Shown here: positions 14,793-32,960 of the stretch, in pieces
How positions within the stretch are numbered: position 1 is the stretch's first letter
Layout: each line of letters starts with the position of its first letter
From: an uncultured Phycisphaera sp.
GTDB taxonomy: Bacteria > Planctomycetota > Phycisphaerae > Phycisphaerales > Phycisphaeraceae
Reading direction: 5' to 3'
DNA: 64,000 nucleotides
Assembly: GCA_964496285.1 (NCBI GenBank)
Contig: CAZBXW010000009.1
Span: 7,366-71,365 of the forward strand
Made by a program: the position numbers and the translations under genes
Notes under the pieces: generated by a model
Database searches by the model: none
What the model was told of the DNA's origin: nothing
Seen by the model: the letters and a program-made list of their open reading frames with translations, nothing else

Positions 14793-15202
14793 GCAATTGT
14801 TAGGAAGCAGAACAGCTTCAATCGCATGGAAACATGGGAATCCGATTCATCGTGACGGGTTAATAGTGGAAAACACCTATACAAATCCTCTTTTACTGCG
14901 TCACGCTAACGTTACAATAATGAGAGAAGTGAGGGCTGTGCGAGCAGCCTTGGCTTGGAGTGGTGGGTGAACCGTGTTTCGCGGGGCCTTTCTGTGTTCC
15001 AGTTGATTTGGGCATGATTCAATCCTGTCGTGATAGGCCCGACTTGTTCAGGCGCGTGGCTTCGTTGCGAGGTTCGGTGCGTTTTGCGAGTTCCTTATGT
15101 GTGCGACGGAGCGGTCATCGGTGGATCGGCGCAGGGCTGTCCCCGTGGGCGCTCCGAGGCGAGTGAGTTCAGTAGTTCGTCCCTGTACTTGAGGAGTGCG
15201 TC

Positions 15203-15442
15203 ATGCAGTTGCGAGGTCAAGTCAAGTGGTTCGATCCGAAGAAAGGCTACGGGTTCATTGTTGGGCCGCAGGGACGCGATGTCTTCGTTCACTACACCCA
15301 GATTCAAGGTGAGGGTTTCCGCTCGCTCAAGGACGGCGAAGAAGTCGACTACGAACTGATTGAGGGCGAGAAGGGCGCACAGGCACGCTTGGTCCAGCGC
15401 TCCGCGGCGAGCAACAGCGCCTCTCAAGGCAAAGTGGCCTGA
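15203..15442 (+). CDS. cold-shock protein (CspA family)
   Basis: RNP1/RNP2-type motifs KGYGFI and VFVHY in a 79-aa protein. Confidence 0.95.
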   Translation: MQLRGQVKWFDPKKGYGFIVGPQGRDVFVHYTQIQGEGFRSLKDGEEVDYELIEGEKGAQARLVQRSAASNSASQGKVA

Positions 15443-15487
15443 CCGGATCACCTCGATGCGACCGCGGCGCGGTATGCTCGATCCGGC

Positions 15488-18266
<2,779 letters not shown>

Positions 18267-18289
18267 GCGAGCATTCTCGGATTCTCACC

Positions 18290-18514
18290 ATGCTCTTTCG
18301 CGTCATCATCGAGCAGGACGAAGACGGCAAGTTTGTGGCCTCGTGCCCGACCCTGCCCGGCTGTTGGAGCCAGGGCCTGACTCGTGATGAAGCGAAACGC
18401 AACATCATGGACGCCATGACCGGATACATCGAAAGCCTGAAAAAGCACGGAGACCCGATCCCGCCGCCGATCAGCGAGGAAATGATCGACATCGACATCG
18501 GAAAGGTAGCCTAA
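18290..18514 (+). CDS. hicB: HicB-family antitoxin (short, no DNA-binding domain)
   Basis: 74 aa, UPF0150/HicB pattern FVASCPTLPGCWSQGLTRDEAKRNIMDAMTGYIESL. Confidence 0.85.
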   Translation: MLFRVIIEQDEDGKFVASCPTLPGCWSQGLTRDEAKRNIMDAMTGYIESLKKHGDPIPPPISEEMIDIDIGKVA

Positions 18515-18516
18515 CC

Positions 18517-18741
18517 ATGGCACGGCTGCCGGTTGTCTCGGGCGAACAGGCCGCCAAAGCGTTTCGACGAATCGGTTATGAACTAAGTCATCAAACAGGC
18601 AGTCACATGATCCTGCGTTCAACCACTCCACCGCACCGCCACCTCTCGATCCCCAATCATCGGGAACTGAGCAAAGGGCTGCTGCGCGGACTGATCCGCG
18701 ACGCGGGACTGACCGTGGAAGAGTTCACCAGACTGTTGTAA
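18517..18741 (+). CDS. hicA: HicA-family toxin (mRNA interferase)
   Basis: 74 aa, YcfA/HicA pattern VSGEQAAKAFRRIGYELSHQTGSHMIL...IPNHRELSKGLLRGLIRDAGL. Starts 2 nt after the hicB stop. Confidence 0.85.
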   Translation: MARLPVVSGEQAAKAFRRIGYELSHQTGSHMILRSTTPPHRHLSIPNHRELSKGLLRGLIRDAGLTVEEFTRLL

Positions 18742-18766
18742 TTCCAACTCAACGATGGAGACCCGT

Positions 18767-19057
18767 ATGAAAATCCGACCCACCGACGACCGTGTTCTCG
18801 TCAAACCCAGCGAAGCCGCCGAGAAAACCAAGAACGGCATCTACCTCCCCGAAGGCGCCAAGGAAAAGCCGATGACCGGCTCGGTCCTGGCCGTCGGACC
18901 GGGCAAGATGGACGACGAGGGTAAACGCACCGCCATGTCCATCAAGAAGGGCGACACCGTTCTCTACGGCAAGTACGCCGGCACCGAAGTCGAAATCGAC
19001 GGCGACAAACTCGTCATCATCCGCGAAAGCGAACTCCTGGGCATCATCGAGAAGTAA
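18767..19057 (+). CDS. groES: co-chaperonin GroES, copy A
   Basis: MKIRPTDDRVLVKP...GSVLAVGPG... aligns with Cpn10. GGAG lies 8 nt upstream of ATG 18767 (ORF-track start 18755 is also possible). Confidence 0.9.
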   Translation: MKIRPTDDRVLVKPSEAAEKTKNGIYLPEGAKEKPMTGSVLAVGPGKMDDEGKRTAMSIKKGDTVLYGKYAGTEVEIDGDKLVIIRESELLGIIEK

Positions 19058-19068
19058 TCCCATTGTCC

Positions 19069-19094
19069 GAGCCGGGCTGTCCACAGCCCGGTGC
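19069..19094. repeat. REP-like hairpin type 1 (GAGCCGGGCTG-TCCA-CAGCCCGGTG)
   Basis: 9-bp GC stem with a tetraloop, between groES and groEL2. Near-identical copies at 22571 and 39948. Confidence 0.8.
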
Positions 19095-19139
19095 ATTCCC
19101 GGCGACCACCAACGCCGGCTCTGAAGGAGCCTCACCATC

Positions 19140-20753
19140 ATGGCCAAGAAGCAACTCATGTTCGGCAGCGACGCCGCCCAGGAACTCCGCAAGGGCCTGG
19201 CGCAGCTCGCCAACGCCGTCAAGATCACCATGGGCCCCACCGGCCGCAATGTCGTCCTCCATAAATCCTTCGGCTCGCCCGCGGTGACCAAGGACGGCGT
19301 CTCCGTCGCCAAGGAGATCGAACTGGCCGAACCCTTCCAGAACATGGGCGCCAAGATGGTCGTCGAGGTCGCCAAGAAGACCAGCGACAAGGCTGGCGAC
19401 GGCACCACCACCGCCACCGTCCTGGCCGAGGCCATCTTCGACGCCGGCCTGCGACATGTCGCCGCCGGCGCTAACCCCATGGCCCTGCAGCGTGGCATCA
19501 CCGCCGCCACCAACGTCGCCTCGCAGGCCATCGCCGACATGTCCGTCAAGTGCAAGGGGTACGACGACCTCATGAAGGTCGCCTCCGTCAGCGCCAACAA
19601 CGATCCCGTCATCGGCAAGCTCATCGCCGACGCCGTGAACAAGGTCGGCATCGAGGGCGTCGTCCAGATCGAGGAGGGCAAGAGCTCCGATACCACCCTC
19701 GAATACGTCGAGGGCATGCAGTTCGACAAGGGCTACCTCTCGCCCTACTTCATGACCGACCCCGCCTCGCAGGAGTGCGTCCTCGAAGACGCCCTGATCC
19801 TCATCTACGAGAAGAAGATCAGCTCTCTGCCCGACCTGCTCCCGCTGCTCAACAAGGTCGCTGTGGCGCAGAAGCCCCTGCTCGTCATCGCCGAGGAGAT
19901 CGAGAACGAAGCCTTGGCCGCCCTCGTGGTCAACCGACTCCGCGGCGTCCTGAAGGTCTGCGCCGTCAAGGCGCCGGGCTTCGGCGACCGTCGCAAGGCG
20001 ATGCTCGGCGACATCGCTGTGCTCACCGGCGGCGAGTTCATCTCCGAGGATTTGGGCACCAAGCTCGAATCGCTCGAAATCCAGTCGCTCGGTAAAGCCA
20101 AGAAGATCGTCATCGACAAGGACAACACCACCCTCGTCGAAGGCGCGGGCAAGCGCAAGGATATCGAAGCCCGCTGCGAGCAGATCCGCCAGCAGATCGA
20201 GGCCACCACCAGCGACTACGACCGCGAAAAACTCCAGGAAAGACTGGCAAAACTCACCGGCGGCGTGGCCATCGTCCACGTCGGCGGCGCTACCGAAACC
20301 GCCATGAAGGAAACCAAGGACCGCGTCGAGGACGCCCTGCACGCCACCAAGGCCGCCGCCAAGGAAGGTTATGTCCCAGGCGGTGGCGTGGCCTTCCTCC
20401 GCGCCATCCCCGCGGTCGAATCCGCTAAGACCAAGGCCAAGGGCGACGAGAAGCTCGGCTACGACATCGTGGTGCAGGCCCTGCGTGCCCCCACCTGGCA
20501 GATCGTGGACAACTCCGGCGAAGACGGCGATATCGTCGTCGATACTCTGCTCGAGAGGAAAGGCTCCGCCGGCTACGACGCCGCCAAGGCTGAATACGTC
20601 GACATGTACAAGGCCGGCATCCTCGACCCCGCCCTCGTCGCTCGCTTCGCCCTCGAAGCCGCCGCCTCCGTCGCTGGTCTCATGCTCACCACCACCGTGC
20701 TCATCACCGAAGTCAAGGAAAAGAAGGACCCCGCCAGCGGCGCCGTGGCGTGA
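19140..20753 (+). CDS. groEL: chaperonin GroEL, paralog 2 (no GGM tail)
   Basis: Full-length Cpn60 ([18 protein letters not shown]...[10 protein letters not shown]). The tail ends [12 protein letters not shown]. Confidence 0.95.
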
Positions 20754-20835
20754 TCGCTCCGTTCCTCTCTCTCTGAACCACCACGGCCCAGGGCGGAAAC
20801 TCGCTCTGGGCCGTTTCGATGGGTGAGCAGAGTCC

Positions 20836-20910
20836 GGGGTCTAAGGTCGAGGGGCCGGGAGAGTTCTGTGACTCTTCACCCTGGAGCTTAGACCCCAGAC
20901 CTTAGACCCT
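20836..20910. repeat. tandem-word palindromic element, E-type (7-nt GGTCTAA words)
   Basis: Left ggggtctaaggtcgagggg. Right cttagaccccagaccttagaccc is an approximate reverse complement. Ends 3 nt before the dnaJ ATG. Confidence 0.65.
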
Positions 20911-20913
20911 TAT

Positions 20914-22062
20914 ATGGCCCCTCAACGCGACTACTACGAAGTGCTCAGCGTCGAACGCACCGCCGGTGTGGACGACATCAAGCGCTCCTATCGCAAGCTG
21001 GCCATGAAGTATCACCCGGATCGAAATCCTGGTGATAAGGAAGCCGAGGCCAAGTTCAAGGAAGCTGCCGAGGCCTACGAAGTTCTCTCCGATCCTGACA
21101 AGCGGCAGCGTTACGACCGCTTCGGGCACGAGGGCCTGCGCGGCGCTGCGGGCCACGACTTCCGCAGCATGGACCCCACCGACATCTTCTCGATGTTCGA
21201 GGACATCTTCGGCGGCGCGGCCGGAGGAGGCGGCGGCCGACGCTCCCGCAGCGGGGCGACACGCGGCTACGACCTCGAAACCCACATCGAAATCAGCCTG
21301 GAAGACGTGGCGCACGGCGTGGACCGCGAGATCGAGTTCACCCGGCAGGACCACTGCCCCACCTGCTCCGGCTCCGGCGCCAAGCCCGGTTCACAACCCA
21401 TCGCCTGCGTCACCTGTGGCGGACAGGGCAAGGTGCAGCAGGCGGGCTTTGGCGGGCTCTTCCGCATGATCACCGACTGCCCCGCCTGTCAGGGCCAGGG
21501 CAAAATATATAAGGATAAGTGCCCCGACTGCAAGGGCGCTGGACGAAAGCCTAAACATCGAGTGCTCAGCGTCAAGGTGCCCCCGGGAATCCACGACGGA
21601 CAGTCGATCCGCGTCTCGGGCGAGGGTGAACCCGGCGCTGCCGGTGGACCGCGTGGCGATCTGCATGTGACCGTCCATGTCGCGCAGCACAAGCTCTTTG
21701 CCCGCGAGGAGGACCACCTGATCCTTCGCATGCCCATCACGTTCACGCAGGCGGCCTTGGGCGCGACGATCAAAGTCCCCACGCTCGACCGTGACCGGAA
21801 AGCTCCGCAGCCCGAGGTCACGATCAAGCCCGGCACGCAGCACGGTGAGATCATCAAGATCAACGGCAGAGGACTTCCCAACCTGCGCAGCGGGCGGCCC
21901 GGGTCGCTGGTCGTCGTCGTGATGGTGGAGGTCCCACGCAAGCTCACGAGCAAGCAGGAGAAGTTGCTCAAGGAATACGCCGCGACGGAGCATCACGACC
22001 GTCCGCCGGAGTCCGACTCGTTCTGGAAGAAGATGAAGGAATATCTCGGAGGTGGTGCATGA
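20914..22062 (+). CDS. dnaJ: chaperone DnaJ
   Basis: J domain (DYYEVLSV...[10 protein letters not shown]), G-rich linker, and four CxxCxGxG zinc-finger repeats. Confidence 0.95.
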
Positions 22063-22568
22063 GCCAGGACCCCCAACAGCCTCAGGAACCCCAAGAAACA
22101 CCGAAGGAAGTCGTTGCGGAAGAGCTGGAGAAGCTGCGCTCCGAGACCGGCGAGCTGCAGGGCAAACTGATGCGCGCCATCGCGGACTATCAGAATTACG
22201 TCCGCAGGGCTGAGCAGAACGTGGTGGTCGCCCGTCAGCAGCAGACGATCGACATGTCCCGCGCCCTGGTCAACGTGCTGGACCACTTCGACAACGCGGT
22301 GGCGGTGGACCCGGAGAAGGTCGCCGCCGCGAAGCTGCTCGAGGGCGTCAAGATCGTCCGCGAGGAGCTGCTCAAGACGCTCGAGCAGTTCGGCGTCCGT
22401 CGCATCGAGGCGAAAGCGGGCGACGAGTTCGATCCGAGACAGCACGAGGCGATGCTCAAGCAAAAGGTCGAAGGGGTTGGCCCCGGTTGCGTGGGCATGC
22501 AGCTCCAGAGCGGTTACGTCTTGGGCGAGATCACGCTTCGTCCCGCCAAGGTCACCGTCACAGAGTAG
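22059..22568 (+). CDS. grpE: nucleotide exchange factor GrpE
   Basis: GrpE-like [15 protein letters not shown]...[13 protein letters not shown] overlap with the dnaJ stop. Confidence 0.9.
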
Positions 22569-22570
22569 TC

Positions 22571-22598
22571 TGAGCCGGGCTGTCCACAACCCGGTGTA
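22571..22598. repeat. REP-like hairpin type 1
   Basis: tgagccgggctgtccacaacccggtgta lies immediately after the grpE stop. One stem mismatch relative to the copy at 19069. Confidence 0.75.
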
Positions 22599-22613
22599 TC
22601 AAGGAGACTCACC

Positions 22614-22937
22614 ATGCCCACCTACGAGTACCAGTGCCAATCGTGCAATCACCTGTTTGAGGAGTTTCAGTCGATCACCGCCGAACCGCTGCGCAAGTGC
22701 CCAGGTTGTGGCAAGCCCAGGCTCCGGCGGCTCATTGGCACCGGAGCGGGGATCATCTTCAAGGGCGGTGGTTTCTACGAGACGGATTACCGCAGCGAGA
22801 GCTACAAGCAGGGCGCCAAAGCCGAGAGCGAGGCGAGCAAGCCCAAGACGGAAGCCAAGTCTGAGACTAAGACGGAGAAGCCCGCCAAGCCCGAGACGAG
22901 CAAGCCGAAGAGAGAGAAAAAAGCCAAATCTGAGTGA
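22614..22937 (+). CDS. FmdB-family zinc-ribbon protein with K/E-rich tail
   Basis: MPTYEYQCQSCNHLFE...CPGCG zinc ribbon. Low-complexity C-terminus SKPKTEAKSETKTEKPAKPETSKPKREKKAKSE. Confidence 0.85.
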   Translation: MPTYEYQCQSCNHLFEEFQSITAEPLRKCPGCGKPRLRRLIGTGAGIIFKGGGFYETDYRSESYKQGAKAESEASKPKTEAKSETKTEKPAKPETSKPKREKKAKSE

Positions 22938-22951
22938 GGCGGGCGGAGCGA

Positions 22952-23923
22952 TCACCACACGACGCTGGGCGCGTCGAAGACGGGTCCATCGGTGCACGCC
23001 AGACGGAATCGCCAGGGTCGGCCCTGTGGCGTGGTCGCCTGCGGGCGCAGCGGGTCCTCGATCTTTACAACGCAGGACTGACAGGTTCCCATGCCGCACG
23101 CCATCGCCTGTTCGAGGCAGACTTGGCAGTCGATGTTGTGAGTCGAAGCAAGCTTGGCGACCGCGTGCATCATCGGTTCGGGGCCACAGGTATATATCAC
23201 GGCCCGGGCCGCGTCCTGGGGTGAGAGTCGTTGGAGCACGCCTTCGAGACCCGCGGTGATGCGGCCGGGCAGCCCCAGCGATCCGTCGTCGGTGGTGACC
23301 ACGCAAGGGCAGTTGTGCTTGGCGAACTGCAGGACGCTGTGCGTGGGCAGACCCGATTCATCGACGGGGCAGCGCGGGTCGAAGGTCACGGGCAGCAGGT
23401 CCTGAGCGAGCGCGCCGATGAAGGCGATGGCGTCCCAGCCTGCGGCGCCGAGAGCTTGCGCGAGGTAGAACATCGGGGGCAGACCGACGCCACCGCCCAC
23501 AAGCAGGGCGAGTGATTTGGCGACGGGAAGCTCGAAGCGATTGCCCAGCGGGCCGATGAGGTCCACGGTGTCGCCGGGCTTGCGTTCGCTGAGCCAGCGG
23601 GTGCCTACGCCCACGACGCGGTGCACGATCTCCAGACTGTTCCCCTCGCGCCCGGCGAGGCTAAAGGGGCGGCGAAGCATCGCGGTGGGTTGGCAGAGTT
23701 CGCGTTGTGATGGATGGGGAGGCGCTTCGGGCCGCCATTCGAGGTCGCGGCTCTCGCAGTCCACCTCCGGCGGAGCGCAGCCGAGCTGGATGAACTGGCC
23801 CGGCTGCGTCGGCGGGAAGGCACCGGTCACGCGCAGGCGCAGCAGGAAATGCTCCCGGCAGAGCGGTTGATTGAACTCGACGGTGGCGTCGAAACGTCCG
23901 CGTGGGGGGGTTCCGGATTCCAA
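22952..23923 (-). CDS. PyrK-like FAD/NAD(P)-binding oxidoreductase with C-terminal 2Fe-2S motif
   Basis: Ferredoxin-reductase-type fold (RPFSLAG; LLVGGGVGLPPM). C-terminal cluster motif CLEQAMACGMGTCQSCVV. Confidence 0.8.
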   Translation of the reverse strand: MESGTPPRGRFDATVEFNQPLCREHFLLRLRVTGAFPPTQPGQFIQLGCAPPEVDCESRDLEWRPEAPPHPSQRELCQPTAMLRRPFSLAGREGNSLEIVHRVVGVGTRWLSERKPGDTVDLIGPLGNRFELPVAKSLALLVGGGVGLPPMFYLAQALGAAGWDAIAFIGALAQDLLPVTFDPRCPVDESGLPTHSVLQFAKHNCPCVVTTDDGSLGLPGRITAGLEGVLQRLSPQDAARAVIYTCGPEPMMHAVAKLASTHNIDCQVCLEQAMACGMGTCQSCVVKIEDPLRPQATTPQGRPWRFRLACTDGPVFDAPSVVW

Positions 23924-30108: not shown

Positions 30109-30327
30109 CGCCACCAAGGGAAGCCAGCGCCAGCCGCGAAGCGGCGCGGGTTCGTCTGCCAAACCGACATATCGCCCTGAACCTCCACCCTGCGTTGGCA
30201 GAAACCAGCCTCTCTTTCAGCTAAGGTCCAGCACCACAAATGATGATCACACATTATCTTACATGTATGCGACCAATCACGCTTTGGGCCTTCGCTTTGC
30301 CTCTTGACAGACGGTCATTCTCTACCC

Positions 30328-30828
30328 ATGGTCAACGTTCGTCCGCCAACTTCGATCGATCCGCCGCTTCGCCGCAGCAGGCTCAACGTGCTGCTGACGG
30401 AGGATCGTCCGCAGGCGACCGAGCACTGGACGGTGCAGCTCTCGCGTCTGCTCGAGCCGCAGGGCGTGGCCTCCTACCTTGTTCGCTCCGGCGACGAAGC
30501 GCTCGAGCTCACGCAGCGCGTCGAGATTCACGCCGCGGTGATCGACCTGAACACGCCGCGCTCCGCTGGGATGAATTTCGCCCACGCCGCGGGCGAGCTC
30601 TGGCTCATCGAACTGCTGCGGCGCTTGCCCAATCGTCCGCCCATCGTGCTCGTGCGCAGTCCTGCCTTCAGCAGGAGCGACGTGGACCGTCTGCTGGCTC
30701 ACGCCCTGCGCCTGGGCGCCTTCTCCGTGCTCAACAAGCCGTTGGACCTGGAGCGCATCCTCGCCGTGTTCCAGCGCCTGCTGGACCGCCGCTACCAAGG
30801 CTCCTGGCCCCTGCCCCCCAACCCCTAA
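30328..30828 (+). CDS. stand-alone response-regulator receiver domain protein
   Basis: REC signature residues: LLTEDR (acidic pair), AAVIDLNTP (phospho-acceptor Asp), IVLVRS, NKP. ATG 30328 (ORF-track TTG 30304). Confidence 0.7.
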   Translation: MVNVRPPTSIDPPLRRSRLNVLLTEDRPQATEHWTVQLSRLLEPQGVASYLVRSGDEALELTQRVEIHAAVIDLNTPRSAGMNFAHAAGELWLIELLRRLPNRPPIVLVRSPAFSRSDVDRLLAHALRLGAFSVLNKPLDLERILAVFQRLLDRRYQGSWPLPPNP

Positions 30829-30845
30829 TCCTCAACCTCCCAGAG

Positions 30846-30867
30846 CCGGGGATGTACCCATCCCCGG
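30846..30867. repeat. REP-like hairpin type 2 (CCGGGGATG-N4-CATCCCCGG)
   Basis: 9-bp stem between the REC gene and groES. Related copies at 38500 and 39903. Confidence 0.75.
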
Positions 30868-30920
30868 ATTCCTCACGACTCACCCTCACCCCTCACCCAC
30901 CCCTCAAGGAGACGTCCGAC

Positions 30921-31235
30921 ATGGCCACCGCCACCGCAAGCCCCGTGAAGATCCGCCCGCTCAACGACAAGATTCTCGTCAAGCGCGTCGAGGCGCAGAC
31001 GAAGACCAAGAGCGGCATCTTCCTCCCCGAGTCCGCCAAAGAGAAGCCGCAGGAGGCCAGCGTCGTGGCGGTGGGCGAGGGCAAACTGCTCGACAACGGC
31101 CAGCGCGCCGCCTTCCAGGTCAAGAAGGGCGACAAGATCCTCCTCTCCAAGTGGGGCGGCACCGAAGTGAAGATCGACGACGTGGAGTACCTGATCATCT
31201 CCGAGGACGACGTGCTGGGCGTGGTCGAAGACTAA
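30921..31235 (+). CDS. groES: co-chaperonin GroES, copy B
   Basis: VKIRPLNDKILVKRVEAQTKTKSGIFLP...VVAVGEGK. GGAG upstream of ATG 30921. The rest of ORF 30240..31235 is read-through. Confidence 0.9.
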   Translation: MATATASPVKIRPLNDKILVKRVEAQTKTKSGIFLPESAKEKPQEASVVAVGEGKLLDNGQRAAFQVKKGDKILLSKWGGTEVKIDDVEYLIISEDDVLGVVED

Positions 31236-31304
31236 CGATCGTAATCTGCGGATCAACTCACAAGCTCAAACCCAAACTATAAAACCCATCAGGAGCATCT
31301 CATC

Positions 31305-32960
31305 ATGGCAGCAAAACTCATCAAGTTCGACACCGAGGCGCGTGAAGCGATCCGTCGCGGCGTGGCCAAGCTCGCGCGGGCCGTCAAGGTCACGCTCGGG
31401 CCCTCGGGCCGCGTCGTGGTCCTGCAGAAATCCTTCGGCTCGCCCTCCGTCACCAAGGACGGCGTGACCGTGGCCAAGGAGATCGAGCTCGAGGACGCGA
31501 TGGAGAACATCGGCGCCCAGATGGTCAAGGAGGTCGCCTCCAAGTCCAGCAAGGACGCGGGCGACGGCACCACCACCGCCACCATCTACGCCGAGGCCCT
31601 GTTCACCGAGGGCCTGAAGAACATCACCGCCGGCGCCAACGCCAACCAGATCAAGCGCGGCATCGACAAGGCGGTGGACGCCGTCGTCGCCGAGCTGGCC
31701 AAGATGTCCAAGAAGATCTCCTCCAGTCAGGAGATCGCGCAGGTGGGCACCTGCGCCGCCAACGCCGACAAGGCCATCGGCGACATCATCGCCCAGGCCA
31801 TGGACAAGGTGGGCAAGGACGGCGTGATCACCGTCGAAGAGGGCAAGAGCCTGGACACCACCGTCGAGCTCGTCGAGGGCATGCAGTTCGACAAGGGCTA
31901 CCTCAGCCCGCACTTCGTCACCGACGCGGGCAAGAGCGAAGCGGTGCTGGAAGACTGCTACGTGCTCATCCACGAGAAGAAGATCACCAGCGCCAAGGAC
32001 CTGGTGCCGCTGCTGGGCAAGATCGCCGAGGCCGGCCGCAGCGTGCTGATCATCGCCGAAGAGGTCGAGGGCGAAGCGCTGGCGACGCTGGTGGTCAACC
32101 GTCTGCGTGGCGTGCTCAAGTGCGCCGCGGTCAAGGCGCCGGGCTTCGGCGACCGCCGCAAGGCCATGCTCGAGGACATCGCCACCCTCACCGGCGGCCG
32201 CGCCATCATGGAAGAGCTGGGCATCCAGCTCGAACACGTGGCCATCAGTGATCTTGGCCGCGCCAAGAAGATCGTCATCGACAAGGAAAACACCACGATC
32301 ATCGAGGGCGCGGGCAAGAGCGCGGACATCAAGGGCCGCATCGAGGCCATCAAGCGCGAGATCGAGCGCACCACCAGCGACTACGACCGCGAGAAGCTCC
32401 AGGAACGCCTGGCCAAGCTCGCCGGCGGTGTGGCGCAGATCAACGTCGGAGCCGCCACCGAGAGCGAGATGAAGGAGAAGAAGGCGCGCGTCGAGGACGC
32501 CATGCACGCCTGCCGCGCCGCGGTGGAAGAGGGCATCCTCCCCGGCGGCGGCGTCTCGGTCATCCGCGCCCGCAAGGTGCTCGAAAACCTCAAGGGCCTG
32601 GTGGGCGACGAGCAGATCGGCGTGGACATCGTCCGCCGCGCCCTGTCCGCCCCCATCAAGCAGATCGCCGAAAACGCCGGGCTCGACGGCTCCGTTGTCG
32701 CGCAGAACGTCGAGCAGGCCAAGGACGTGAACCACGGCTACAACGCCCTGACGCACGAGTACGGCGACCTGGTCAAGATGGGGGTGATTGTCCCGACCAA
32801 GGTCGAACGCATCGCCCTGCAGAACGCCAGCTCCATCGCCGGTCTTCTGCTCACCACCGACGCGGTGGTCAGCGAGATCAAAGAGAAGAAGGCAGCCCCC
32901 GCGGGCGGCCCCGGTGGCGGCATGGGCGGCATGGGCGGTATGGACGATATGGATTATTGA
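31305..32960 (+). CDS. groEL: chaperonin GroEL, paralog 3 (canonical GGM tail)
   Basis: Full-length Cpn60. The tail ends [18 protein letters not shown]. Confidence 0.95.

What the first reader, a model, noticed from the sequence alone, without database searches (positions are those of the whole stretch)
18267..18766. hicB-hicA toxin-antitoxin pair wedged between groEL1 and groES-groEL2 in a co-directional chaperone super-cluster
Seen in sequence, all on the + strand:
- groEL1 stops at 18266.
- hicB starts 23 nt later.
- hicA starts 2 nt after the hicB stop.
- groES starts 25 nt after the hicA stop.
- Then come groEL2, dnaJ, grpE and an FmdB zinc-ribbon gene.

There is no T-tract terminator between these genes. 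The two hic genes look less GC-rich than their neighbours by eye. The HicB is the short form without a DNA-binding domain, and the gene order is antitoxin first.

Established knowledge: HicA proteins are mRNA interferases neutralised by HicB. Tripartite toxin-antitoxin-chaperone (TAC) systems are known in which a SecB-like chaperone controls antitoxin stability.

Inference: this module is probably co-transcribed with chaperonin genes. It could be a simple addiction cassette that landed in the operon. More interestingly, it could be a TA pair whose DNA-binding-less antitoxin depends on, or reports on, GroES/EL capacity. That would be a TAC-like arrangement not described for chaperonins.
Basis: partly seen in the sequence, partly recalled or inferred. 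Interest (0 to 1): 0.7.

Follow-up and report, generated by a model that had tools for sequence, protein, structure and literature searches.

The report
Toxin-antitoxin cassette inside chaperonin operon
A small HicB-HicA toxin-antitoxin gene pair really does sit between two chaperonin genes and is almost certainly transcribed with them, but most related bacteria lack it there, so it looks like a long-resident optional passenger and not a new chaperone-controlled toxin system.

Summary
The order is groEL1, 23 nt, hicB (18290-18514), 2 nt, hicA (18517-18741), 25 nt, groES, groEL2, dnaJ, grpE, Zn-ribbon, with no + strand terminator.

HicA and HicB are clear family members. HicA keeps its catalytic His and models as a HicA fold. 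HicB is only the toxin-binding domain.

The backbone groEL1-groES-groEL2-dnaJ-grpE is conserved in related Phycisphaerae/Planctomycetota. A survey anchored on GroEL1, and so blind to hicBA, saw 61 groEL1-groES junctions:
- 40 are empty.
- 14 hold other cargo, including a BrnT toxin, DUF2442 genes and DedA+HIT.
- 5 hold intact hicBA.
- 2 hold a decayed hicA with hicB deleted.

The same HicBA subfamily occurs in many phyla, including archaea, with no chaperone nearby.

The junction copies still share a unique 4-7-residue HicB tail (14/14 against 0/68) and evolve under strong purifying selection (dN/dS about 0.05-0.15). They therefore appear to be one old lineage, repeatedly lost.

Verdict: this is an accessory, promoter-less HicBA cassette riding a chaperonin operon whose only recognisable promoter is a sigma-54-type one. 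Co-transcription is supported. A TAC-like dependence on GroES/EL is not supported, but is not excluded.

The parts
16407..16420 (+). Degenerate copy (TTGGCATTCGGCAG) of the inverted repeat CTGCC-N5-6-GGCA found upstream of groEL1 in relatives. Candidate enhancer-binding-protein site.
   Evidence: The repeat occurs in 43 of 62 distinct groEL1 upstream regions, against 0.018 expected per 400 nt. Its modal distance upstream of the sigma-54 element is 115-117 nt. In the window the variant sits about 115 nt upstream. The assignment in the window is by position only.
16522..16537 (+). Sigma-54-type -24/-12 promoter element TGGCAGCCACATTGCA, about 98 nt before the groEL1 ATG. It is the only recognisable promoter ahead of hicBA and groES.
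   Evidence: The strict motif is in 36 of 64 related groEL1 upstream regions, against 0.009 expected per 300 nt. The relaxed motif is in 43 of 62. No locus has one between groEL1 and groES. Function is inferred.
16620..18266 (+). groEL1 (548 aa), first gene of the cluster. In this genome it has a His-rich tail in place of the GGM repeats of its orthologues.
   Evidence: Pfam Cpn60_TCP1 265 bits; NCBIfam GroEL 769 bits. Orthologues are 70-84% identical.
18267..18289 (+). 23-nt groEL1-hicB spacer, too short for a promoter or terminator.
   Evidence: Sequence. L027 has the same 23-nt spacing and L015 has 13 nt.
18290..18514 (+). hicB antitoxin (74 aa). It is the HicA-binding N-terminal domain only, with no RHH/HTH domain. 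The C-terminal tail ...IDIGKVA is specific to junction copies.
   Evidence: Pfam PF15919 39.8 bits, profile positions 1-60 of 123. PDB matches to the N-terminal domains of HicB 6G1C/6G1N and to TTHA0281. Tail: 14/14 junction copies are 74-77 aa and 68/68 others are 68-71 aa. dN/dS 0.05-0.15.
18517..18741 (+). hicA toxin (74 aa), a predicted mRNA interferase. Its start lies 2 nt after the hicB stop, a spacing that would allow translational coupling (inferred).
   Evidence: Pfam PF07927 49.7 bits. G28-S29-H30 is invariant in 33 relatives, and GSH is kept in 83 of 84 copies. AlphaFold2 pLDDT 93.7. Foldseek 1WHZ TM 0.78 and B. pseudomallei HicA 6G26 TM 0.72/0.85. dN/dS 0.07-0.13. Toxicity was not tested.
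18742..18766 (+). 25-nt hicA-groES spacer carrying the groES Shine-Dalgarno (GGAG, 18757-18760).
   Evidence: Sequence. The same '..ACGGAGA..' ribosome-site context precedes groES in empty junctions.
18767..19057 (+). groES (96 aa)
   Evidence: Pfam Cpn10 113 bits.
19140..20753 (+). groEL2 (537 aa, no GGM tail)
   Evidence: Pfam and NCBIfam GroEL; alignment.
20914..22937 (+). dnaJ (20914-22062), grpE (22059-22568) and the Zn_ribbon_8/FmdB-type gene (22614-22937): the conserved tail of the cluster.
   Evidence: Pfam. The same order occurs in most related loci.

Best explanation
This is a type II HicB-HicA toxin-antitoxin cassette of the minimal, hicB-first kind. HicB is only the toxin-binding domain and has no DNA-binding domain.

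The cassette occupies the variable spacer between groEL1 and groES of the conserved planctomycetal heat-shock cluster groEL1-groES-groEL2-dnaJ-grpE-Zn-ribbon.

Shown:
- Identity of both genes.
- Exact flush spacing with no terminator.
- The cluster is the conserved backbone and the cassette is optional within it.
- The cassette can decay.
- Other small mobile-type genes use the same gap.
- The junction copies form one lineage, marked by a shared HicB tail, and are under purifying selection.

Inferred:
- The cassette has no promoter of its own. It is expressed as a passenger of the transcript that starts at the sigma-54-type promoter upstream of groEL1.
- In this genome, groES (and probably groEL2) transcription must read through hicBA.
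- HicA acts as an RNase neutralised stoichiometrically by HicB, as in studied HicAB systems.
- The pair persists because it is addictive and/or mildly useful, and because it is flanked by genes the cell presumably cannot lose. It is not a component of the chaperone machinery.
- It probably entered this junction once, early in this Phycisphaerae radiation, and has since been lost many times.
For: Identity.

Spacing and no terminator or sigma-70 promoter.

Sigma-54 element: it is conserved upstream of groEL1 (36/64 strict, 43/62 relaxed, against 0.009-0.037 expected). It is absent between groEL1 and groES in every locus. It reappears just before groEL2 in two loci where groEL2 is split off (L017, L156).

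Backbone conserved, cassette optional: in the GroEL1-anchored metagenome survey of 61 junctions, 40 were empty, 14 held other cargo, 5 held hicBA and 2 held decayed hicA.

hicBA+ loci are sisters of hicBA- loci in the GroEL1 tree: L003/L112 bootstrap 100, L012/L161 100, L027/L156 93.

Clean presence/absence: L027 and L156 have identical groEL1 3' ends.

Decay: in L096/L097 hicB is deleted and hicA is frameshifted.

Other cargo in the gap: BrnT, DUF2442, MNT-type nucleotidyltransferase, DedA+HIT.

The same subfamily occurs without chaperones in 70 of 81 HicBA pairs across many phyla and archaea.

Single lineage and selection: HicB tail 14/14 against 0/68. All junction copies fall in one split with five other Planctomycetota copies: 145/200 bootstraps for the 11 copies then known, 64/200 for all 14. 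dN/dS is 0.05-0.15.

Foreign-looking codon usage: GC3 0.61 and 0.77 against 0.79-0.89.
Against: - No transcript data exist. Promoter types other than sigma-70 and sigma-54 consensus could lie inside groEL1 or hicBA.
- Retention at one junction across hosts whose GroEL1 proteins are only 70-84% identical, with strong purifying selection and a junction-specific HicB tail, is more than a selfish passenger strictly needs. It leaves room for a function tied to the operon.
- HicBA and GroEL1 pairwise identities correlate only weakly (r = 0.27, Mantel p = 0.02). For example, W and L089 are 84% identical in GroEL1 but 58% in HicBA. Single vertical descent is therefore not clean.
- The NJ trees on 144-158 columns are poorly resolved.
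- Toxicity and neutralisation are untested.
Confidence: 0.68

Rival explanations
1. Functional wiring to the heat-shock operon. This HicBA lineage would be kept because it is expressed from the chaperonin promoter, and because HicB folding or stability (perhaps through its extra tail) reports on GroES/EL capacity or on stress proteases. HicA would then transiently cut mRNA and lower the load of new proteins during proteotoxic stress.
For: - Obligatory co-transcription geometry.
- Persistence of one HicBA lineage at this junction in at least 13 divergent lineages, with dN/dS 0.05-0.15.
- A junction-specific 4-7-residue HicB C-terminal extension, 14/14 against 0/68.
- HicB lacks a DNA-binding domain and so cannot autoregulate.
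- HicAB-type TAC systems with SecB-like chaperones do exist (PMC5105189).
Against: - The cassette is missing from about 90% of orthologous junctions, including sisters of carriers.
- It decays.
- Unrelated cargo, including another toxin (BrnT), occupies the same gap.
- The tail is far shorter than the 30-42-residue ChAD regions and is not conserved in sequence.
- The five closest non-junction copies have the same domain content apart from the tail and no chaperone genes nearby.
- No dedicated chaperone paralogue accompanies the cassette. GroEL1, GroES and GroEL2 are present with or without it.
Confidence: 0.12
2. Insertion hotspot with repeated independent captures. The groEL1-groES spacer is simply a permissive, highly transcribed landing site. 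hicBA, like BrnT and the others, landed there several separate times from the general mobile pool.
For: - Diverse cargo occupies the same gap.
- hicBA+ loci are scattered in the GroEL1 tree.
- HicBA and GroEL1 similarity are discordant for several pairs, and L089/L071 and L101 are outliers.
Against: - All 14 junction HicBs share a length extension absent from all 68 others, including the nearest Planctomycetota copies. That is hard to obtain by independent capture.
- The junction copies cluster together in the NJ trees.
- The order within the gap is constant: hicBA always lies next to groEL1 (or p240) and before small65/DedA/HIT.
Confidence: 0.12
3. Domesticated RNase for operon mRNA processing. 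HicA would cleave the groEL1-hicBA-groES-groEL2 transcript to uncouple groEL1 levels from groES-groEL2 levels.
For: Only the position inside the polycistron, and the fact that the gene order groEL1-before-groES is unusual.
Against: Most relatives manage the same operon without hicBA. HicA and HicB keep the standard toxin-antitoxin features. There is no evidence of a conserved cleavage target.
Confidence: 0.04

Closest known systems
HicAB/HicBA type II toxin-antitoxin systems (E. coli HicAB, B. pseudomallei HicAB PDB 6G26, Y. pestis HicA3B3 4P78, S. pneumoniae HicBA; T. thermophilus 1WHZ and TTHA0281 as unstudied minimal relatives)
   Same: - HicA: Pfam family, predicted fold and the conserved GSH catalytic histidine.
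- HicB: N-terminal toxin-binding domain.
- Adjacent bicistron with a 2-nt gap.
- Patchy, mobile distribution (PMC2701414).
   Different: HicB lacks the RHH/HTH DNA-binding domain that mediates autoregulation in the studied systems. PMC2701414 notes that only some HicBs are fused to one. The pair has no room for its own promoter and is embedded in a housekeeping heat-shock operon. Junction copies carry a short extra HicB tail.
Tripartite toxin-antitoxin-chaperone (TAC) systems: Mtb HigBA1-SecB^TA and the HicAB-type TAC of Methylomonas methanica (PMC5105189, PMC6377645)
   Same: A toxin-antitoxin pair encoded in one operon with chaperone genes, and a HicAB-family pair can be involved.
   Different: TACs use a dedicated SecB-like chaperone and an antitoxin with a 30-42-residue C-terminal ChAD region, and the three genes travel together. 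Here the chaperones are the housekeeping GroES/GroEL genes, which exist with or without the cassette. The tail is 4-7 residues and no SecB-like gene was seen.
Planctomycetal heat-shock cluster, e.g. Rhodopirellula baltica Cpn60 RB8966 - Cpn10 RB8969 - GroEL RB8970 - DnaJ RB8972 - GrpE RB8974, all heat-induced (PMC2754498)
   Same: The same gene set, and apparently the same order judging by locus-tag order, as the window's backbone and as about 60 related loci.
   Different: That paper does not describe a hicBA pair in the cluster. I could not examine the R. baltica junction itself.
Toxin-antitoxin pairs that sit in or behind host operons or regulons (E. coli mazEF downstream of relA, from my own knowledge; the competence-regulated toxTA of Haemophilus influenzae, bioRxiv 10.1101/330480, title and abstract only)
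   Same: A horizontally acquired TA pair whose expression is governed by a host stress or development promoter.
   Different: A different toxin family, host regulon and promoter type (sigma-54-type here, inferred).

Membership tests
HicA toxin family (PF07927) | Sequence match to the family profile above the curated cut-off | tested here: met
   49.7 bits against a cut-off of 27, covering profile positions 2-58 of 58.
HicA toxin family (PF07927) | dsRBD-like alpha-beta3-alpha fold | tested here: met
   AlphaFold2 pLDDT 93.7, elements H-E-E-E-H-H. Foldseek 1WHZ TM 0.78/0.82 and B. pseudomallei HicA 6G26 TM 0.72/0.85, rmsd 1.4-1.6.
HicA toxin family (PF07927) | Conserved catalytic histidine (G-S-H motif). 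Its catalytic role is from my knowledge of the E. coli and B. pseudomallei HicA studies. | tested here: met
   G28, S29 and H30 are invariant in 33 relatives. G[ST]H is present in 83 of 84 copies.
HicA toxin family (PF07927) | RNase activity and growth inhibition | not testable with these tools
   Needs expression and cleavage assays.
HicB antitoxin family (PF15919 / UPF0150) | N-terminal partial RNase-H-like HicA-binding domain | tested here: met
   39.8 bits against a cut-off of 27, profile positions 1-60 of 123. PDB matches to residues 2-58 of HicB 6G1C/6G1N, and to 2DSY and 4P78. No structure model was made for HicB.
HicB antitoxin family (PF15919 / UPF0150) | C-terminal RHH or HTH DNA-binding domain. 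This is common but not universal, so it is not strictly defining (PMC2701414). | tested here: not met
   The protein ends at residue 74. Nothing lies beyond the toxin-binding domain except an approximately 5-residue tail.
Type II TA module | Adjacent co-directional small genes with tight coupling, and a patchy, mobile distribution | tested here: met
   2-nt gap. Of 82 subfamily members compared, 80 are paired. Found across phyla and archaea. Presence/absence between sister lineages.
Toxin-antitoxin-chaperone (TAC) system | Dedicated SecB-like chaperone gene in the module | tested here: not met
   The flanking genes are GroEL, GroES, GroEL, DnaJ and GrpE. No SecB-like gene is among the genes identified around the cassette.
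Toxin-antitoxin-chaperone (TAC) system | Antitoxin with a C-terminal chaperone-addiction (ChAD) extension of about 30-42 residues (PMC5105189) | tested here: not met
   Junction HicBs are 74-77 aa against 68-71 aa elsewhere. The 4-7-residue tail is not conserved in sequence.
Toxin-antitoxin-chaperone (TAC) system | Toxin, antitoxin and chaperone co-occur as a unit | tested here: not met
   The chaperonin cluster lacks hicBA in 54 of 61 junctions. hicBA occurs without chaperonin genes in 70 of 81 HicBA pairs.
Toxin-antitoxin-chaperone (TAC) system | Antitoxin folding or stability depends on the chaperone | not testable with these tools
   Needs co-expression and solubility assays.

The most novel reading that the evidence does not exclude
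One HicBA lineage, marked by a short extra HicB tail, has been kept for a very long time inside a sigma-54-driven planctomycetal chaperonin operon because it is functionally coupled to it. Toxin and antitoxin would be made only with the heat-shock transcript. The promoter-less, DNA-binding-less HicB would depend on GroES/EL capacity or on stress proteolysis. HicA would act as a heat-shock-gated brake on translation. This would be a chaperonin-linked analogue of TAC systems.
Probability: 0.12. Interest if true: 0.65.

Novelty: new member of a known kind. Interest (0 to 1): 0.3.

Why it matters
As it stands, this is a clean natural example of a minimal toxin-antitoxin pair with no regulator domain and no promoter. 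It survives by sitting inside a heat-shock operon, and it can be traced through gain, long retention, loss and decay across many uncultured Phycisphaerae. That is useful for thinking about how TA cassettes persist on chromosomes, but it does not change what is known about HicAB or chaperonins.

It would matter more if the junction-specific HicB tail or the operon context turned out to make HicA activity depend on chaperonin capacity.

The by-product may be of wider use. There is comparative evidence that the planctomycetal groEL1-groES-groEL2 cluster is driven by a sigma-54-type promoter with a conserved upstream inverted repeat. This is a testable lead on heat-shock regulation in a phylum where it is poorly understood.

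Tried and rejected
- CIRCE/HrcA operator: no match in the window at up to 3 mismatches.
- Sigma-70 promoter scan of 15000-23500: none. The terminator-like sites found are all on the - strand and at the chance level.
- Rfam over the whole window: only one tRNA.
- PADLOC and NCBIfam: no model matches HicB or HicA.
- The 565-589-aa 'no Pfam' proteins upstream of hicB in relatives at first looked like a different gene. tblastn showed they are GroEL1 orthologues.
- My first sigma-54 regex (TTGC[AT]) hit only 5 of 66 loci and I nearly dismissed the motif. Reading the sequences showed TTGCC variants, and a corrected pattern gave 36 of 64.
- The second sigma-54-like hit in the window (26072) lies inside the Na+/H+ exchanger ORF and is treated as chance.
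- No sigma-54 activator (AAA+ enhancer-binding protein) turned up among 19 larger window ORFs scanned.
- The first tree script timed out.
- Recent lateral transfer of the cassette among W, L003 and L005 was considered, because HicBA dN is lower than GroES and GroEL1 dN. It was rejected because hic synonymous sites are saturated.
- Literature: no paper links HicAB with groES/groEL operons or with Phycisphaerae.

Full report
**Observation.**
- groEL1 ends at 18266. Its real start is 16620, at MAAKELTF.
- hicB is 18290-18514.
- hicA is 18517-18741.
- groES is 18767-19057, with a GGAG at 18757-18760.
- groEL2 is 19140-20753, dnaJ 20914-22062, grpE 22059-22568 and a Zn_ribbon_8 gene 22614-22937.

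Pfam places every gene above its curated cut-off. HicB_lk_antitox scores 39.8 bits and matches only profile positions 1-60 of 123. HicA_toxin scores 49.7 bits. The region 15000-23500 has no terminator-like site on the + strand and no sigma-70-like promoter. The hic genes are only slightly lower in overall GC than their neighbours, and groES is as low. Their third-position GC stands out more: 0.61 for hicA and 0.77 for hicB, against 0.79-0.89.

**What the two proteins are.**
- HicA has more than 100 database clusters at 68-89% identity.
- In an alignment of 33 of these, G28-S29-H30 and 21 other positions are invariant.
- An AlphaFold2 model is confident (pLDDT 93.7).
- Its best structural matches are the T. 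thermophilus HicA-like protein 1WHZ (TM 0.78) and B. pseudomallei HicA in the HicAB complex 6G26 (TM 0.72/0.85) (sequence match).
- HicB matches only the N-terminal, toxin-binding domains of solved HicBs (6G1C, 6G1N, 4P78) and the stand-alone TTHA0281.
- HicB ends where those proteins continue into their DNA-binding domain. Makarova et al. note that the HicB domain itself is probably not DNA-binding and that only some HicBs are fused to RHH or HTH domains (PMC2701414).

Both are therefore ordinary family members of the minimal, hicB-first type.

**Relatives found through HicA.** Four look-ups of close HicA relatives all showed hicB-hicA directly upstream of a Cpn10 gene. This at first suggested a conserved linkage.

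A scan of one genome per species with the HicA alignment returned 80 loci from many bacterial phyla and from archaea, at 55-77% identity. tblastn with the window's proteins gave two results:
- Only Phycisphaerales MAGs carry groEL1-hicB-hicA-groES. These are L009, L011, L012, L015, L017, L027 and L071, plus L003, L005 and L008 from the look-ups.
- The upstream 565-589-aa proteins that carried no Pfam label are GroEL1 orthologues (70-83% identity).

Overall, 70 of the 81 HicBA pairs compared show no chaperone gene within the flanks held.

**Relatives found without reference to HicA.** To remove the bias of searching with HicA, I anchored a metagenome scan on a peptide conserved in GroEL1 orthologues but different in GroEL2 and E. 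coli GroEL. Of the 80 loci returned, 61 show a groES downstream. The backbone groEL1-groES-groEL2-dnaJ-grpE-Zn-ribbon is the conserved feature. The same gene set is heat-induced in Rhodopirellula baltica as RB8966-RB8974 (PMC2754498). The 61 junctions break down as follows:
- 40 are empty, with spacers of about 50-430 nt.
- 14 contain 0.6-2.4 kb of other sequence.
- 5 contain intact hicBA (L089, L094, L101, L159, L163).
- 2 (L096, L097) contain a hicA remnant.

In L096 the alignment to its close relative L094 starts at about hicA codon 3, just 25 nt after the groEL1 stop. It contains frameshifting gaps, and hicB is gone.

The other cargo includes:
- a BrnT ribonuclease toxin plus a DUF2442 gene (L144);
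- an aspartyl-protease-like gene plus DUF2442 (L134);
- an MNT-type nucleotidyltransferase fragment after hicA (L005);
- a DedA/VTT membrane protein with a HIT protein (nine loci);
- a 65-aa basic Gly-rich ORF;
- a 240-aa unknown protein.

Where several of these occur together, the order is constant: groEL1, [p240], [hicBA], [small ORF], [DedA-HIT], groES.

**Evolutionary pattern.** In a GroEL1 neighbour-joining tree the hicBA-positive loci are scattered. They are often sisters of hicBA-negative loci with high support: L003/L112 100, L012/L161 100, L027/L156 93, L089/L116 76. L027 and L156 have identical groEL1 3' ends. They differ by the cassette replacing a 54-nt spacer.

Pairwise HicBA identity tracks GroEL1 identity only weakly (r = 0.27, Mantel p = 0.02). 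Some pairs are clearly discordant: W and L089 are 84% identical in GroEL1 but 58% in HicBA.

The junction copies are nevertheless not a random draw from the mobile pool:
- In trees of concatenated HicB+HicA they all fall in one split together with five non-junction Planctomycetota copies. Support was 145/200 bootstraps for the 11 copies and 64/200 for all 14.
- All 14 junction HicBs are 74-77 aa long because of a 4-7-residue C-terminal tail. All 68 other HicBs, including those five nearest copies, are 68-71 aa.
- Both genes are under strong purifying selection. dN/dS is 0.05-0.15 for hicB and 0.07-0.13 for hicA, with synonymous sites near or at saturation.
- The GSH motif is retained.

The simplest reading is one old insertion next to groEL1, followed by many losses and perhaps some exchange between related junctions. 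Repeated independent capture is less likely.

**Expression.** The spacers of 23, 2 and 25 nt cannot hold a promoter or an intrinsic terminator. Two other carriers have equally tight groEL1-hicB spacers: L027 with 23 nt and L015 with 13 nt.

Reading the groEL1 upstream regions of relatives revealed a sigma-54-type -24/-12 element with consensus TGGCAC-N5-TTGCC:
- The strict pattern is in 36 of 64 distinct upstream regions, against 0.009 expected per 300 nt.
- A relaxed pattern is in 43 of 62.
- It lies 76-224 nt before the start codon.
- An inverted repeat CTGCC-N5-6-GGCA is present in 43 of 62 regions, most often 115-117 nt further upstream. This is the classic layout of an enhancer-binding-protein site.

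The window has the promoter element at 16522-16537 and a degenerate repeat at the expected distance, 16407-16420. No locus has such an element between groEL1 and groES. In two loci where groEL2 is separated from groES by insertions (L017, L156), a second element sits just before groEL2.

I therefore infer that in this genome groEL1, hicB, hicA and groES, and probably groEL2, form one sigma-54-dependent transcript. hicBA would be a promoter-less passenger, and groES expression would have to read through it. This is inference from sequence. No transcript data were available.

**Comparison with TAC systems.** Known TACs, including a HicAB-type one from Methylomonas methanica, combine three things: a dedicated SecB-like chaperone, an antitoxin with a 30-42-residue C-terminal chaperone-addiction region, and co-inheritance of the three genes (PMC5105189). 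None of these holds here:
- The chaperones are the housekeeping chaperonins, which are present with or without the cassette.
- The HicB tail is 4-7 residues and variable in sequence.
- The cassette is absent from most orthologous junctions.

The TAC-like reading therefore fails every membership feature that could be tested. Functional dependence of HicB on GroES/EL cannot be excluded by sequence alone. The junction-specific tail and the long retention are the only hints in its favour.

**Verdict.** The best explanation (about 0.68) is an accessory HicBA cassette that has long resided in a variable, cargo-accepting spacer of the planctomycetal heat-shock cluster. It is a new genomic context for a known kind of element, and I score its interest at 0.3. 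The most novel reading still open is a heat-shock-gated, chaperonin-linked HicBA, with a probability of about 0.12.

Noticed in passing
window 16522-16537 (+) and 16407-16420 (+); related loci L003-L168, 76-224 nt upstream of groEL1: A sigma-54-type promoter (TGGCAC-N5-TTGCC) lies upstream of groEL1 in 36/64 (strict) or 43/62 (relaxed) related loci, against 0.009-0.037 expected. An inverted repeat CTGCC-N5-6-GGCA lies about 115-117 nt further upstream in 43/62. This suggests the planctomycetal chaperonin cluster is sigma-54 and enhancer-binding-protein dependent. I found no paper describing this.
   Followed up: partly
groEL1-groES gap in L144 3765-5023, L134 2500-3583, L005 8247-8636, L009 8237-9425, L096 8598-8870 and others: The same spacer holds other cargo in relatives: BrnT toxin + DUF2442, Asp-protease-like + DUF2442, an MNT-type nucleotidyltransferase fragment, DedA/VTT + HIT (nine loci), and a weak Phd/YefM-like ORF. 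The junction behaves as a variable, cargo-accepting site inside a conserved operon.
   Followed up: partly
L008 8248-8445, L094 8408-8605, L096 8145-8342, L015 7576-7791, also L104 and L157: A conserved ~65-aa basic, Gly-rich ORF (MAKASDLMGRSGAGG...GGGK.PV.RRPKV) lies between hicA (or groEL1) and groES in several lineages. It has no NCBIfam match and was not scanned against Pfam. It is absent from the window.
   Followed up: partly
HicB C-termini, window 18500-18514 and the junction copies in L003-L101: All 14 HicBs at the chaperonin junction carry a 4-7-residue C-terminal tail (e.g. ..IDIGKVA..IPLKRKAG) that none of the 68 other subfamily members has. Its function is unknown.
   Followed up: partly
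L096 7871-8110 and L097 3363-3601; L015 7336-7563: L096 and L097 keep a frameshifted hicA with hicB deleted, which is typical TA decay. L015 HicA has a premature stop that removes its last three residues.
   Followed up: yes
window 30304-32960 (+): A second groES (30921-31235) and a third groEL (31305-32960) form a canonical groES-groEL pair 12 kb downstream. They are preceded by a stand-alone response-regulator receiver gene (30304-30828). A CTGCCAAACCGACA / TTGGCAG motif at about 30155-30200 resembles the groEL1 upstream repeat.
   Followed up: partly
window 18230-18266: GroEL1 of this genome ends in a His-rich tail ([12 protein letters not shown]) where its orthologues have GGM repeats, some preceded by HxH runs. 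From my own knowledge, this is reminiscent of mycobacterial GroEL1.
   Followed up: no
window 15203-16339 (+): A cold-shock-domain gene (15203-15442) and a HisKA/HATPase_c histidine kinase (15488-16339) lie directly upstream of the groEL1 promoter region. No sigma-54 activator was found among the 19 window ORFs scanned.
   Followed up: partly
L003 7047-7769 and L009 7018-7776: A 240-252-aa protein with no Pfam match is inserted between groEL1 and hicB in two lineages (29% identity between them).
   Followed up: no
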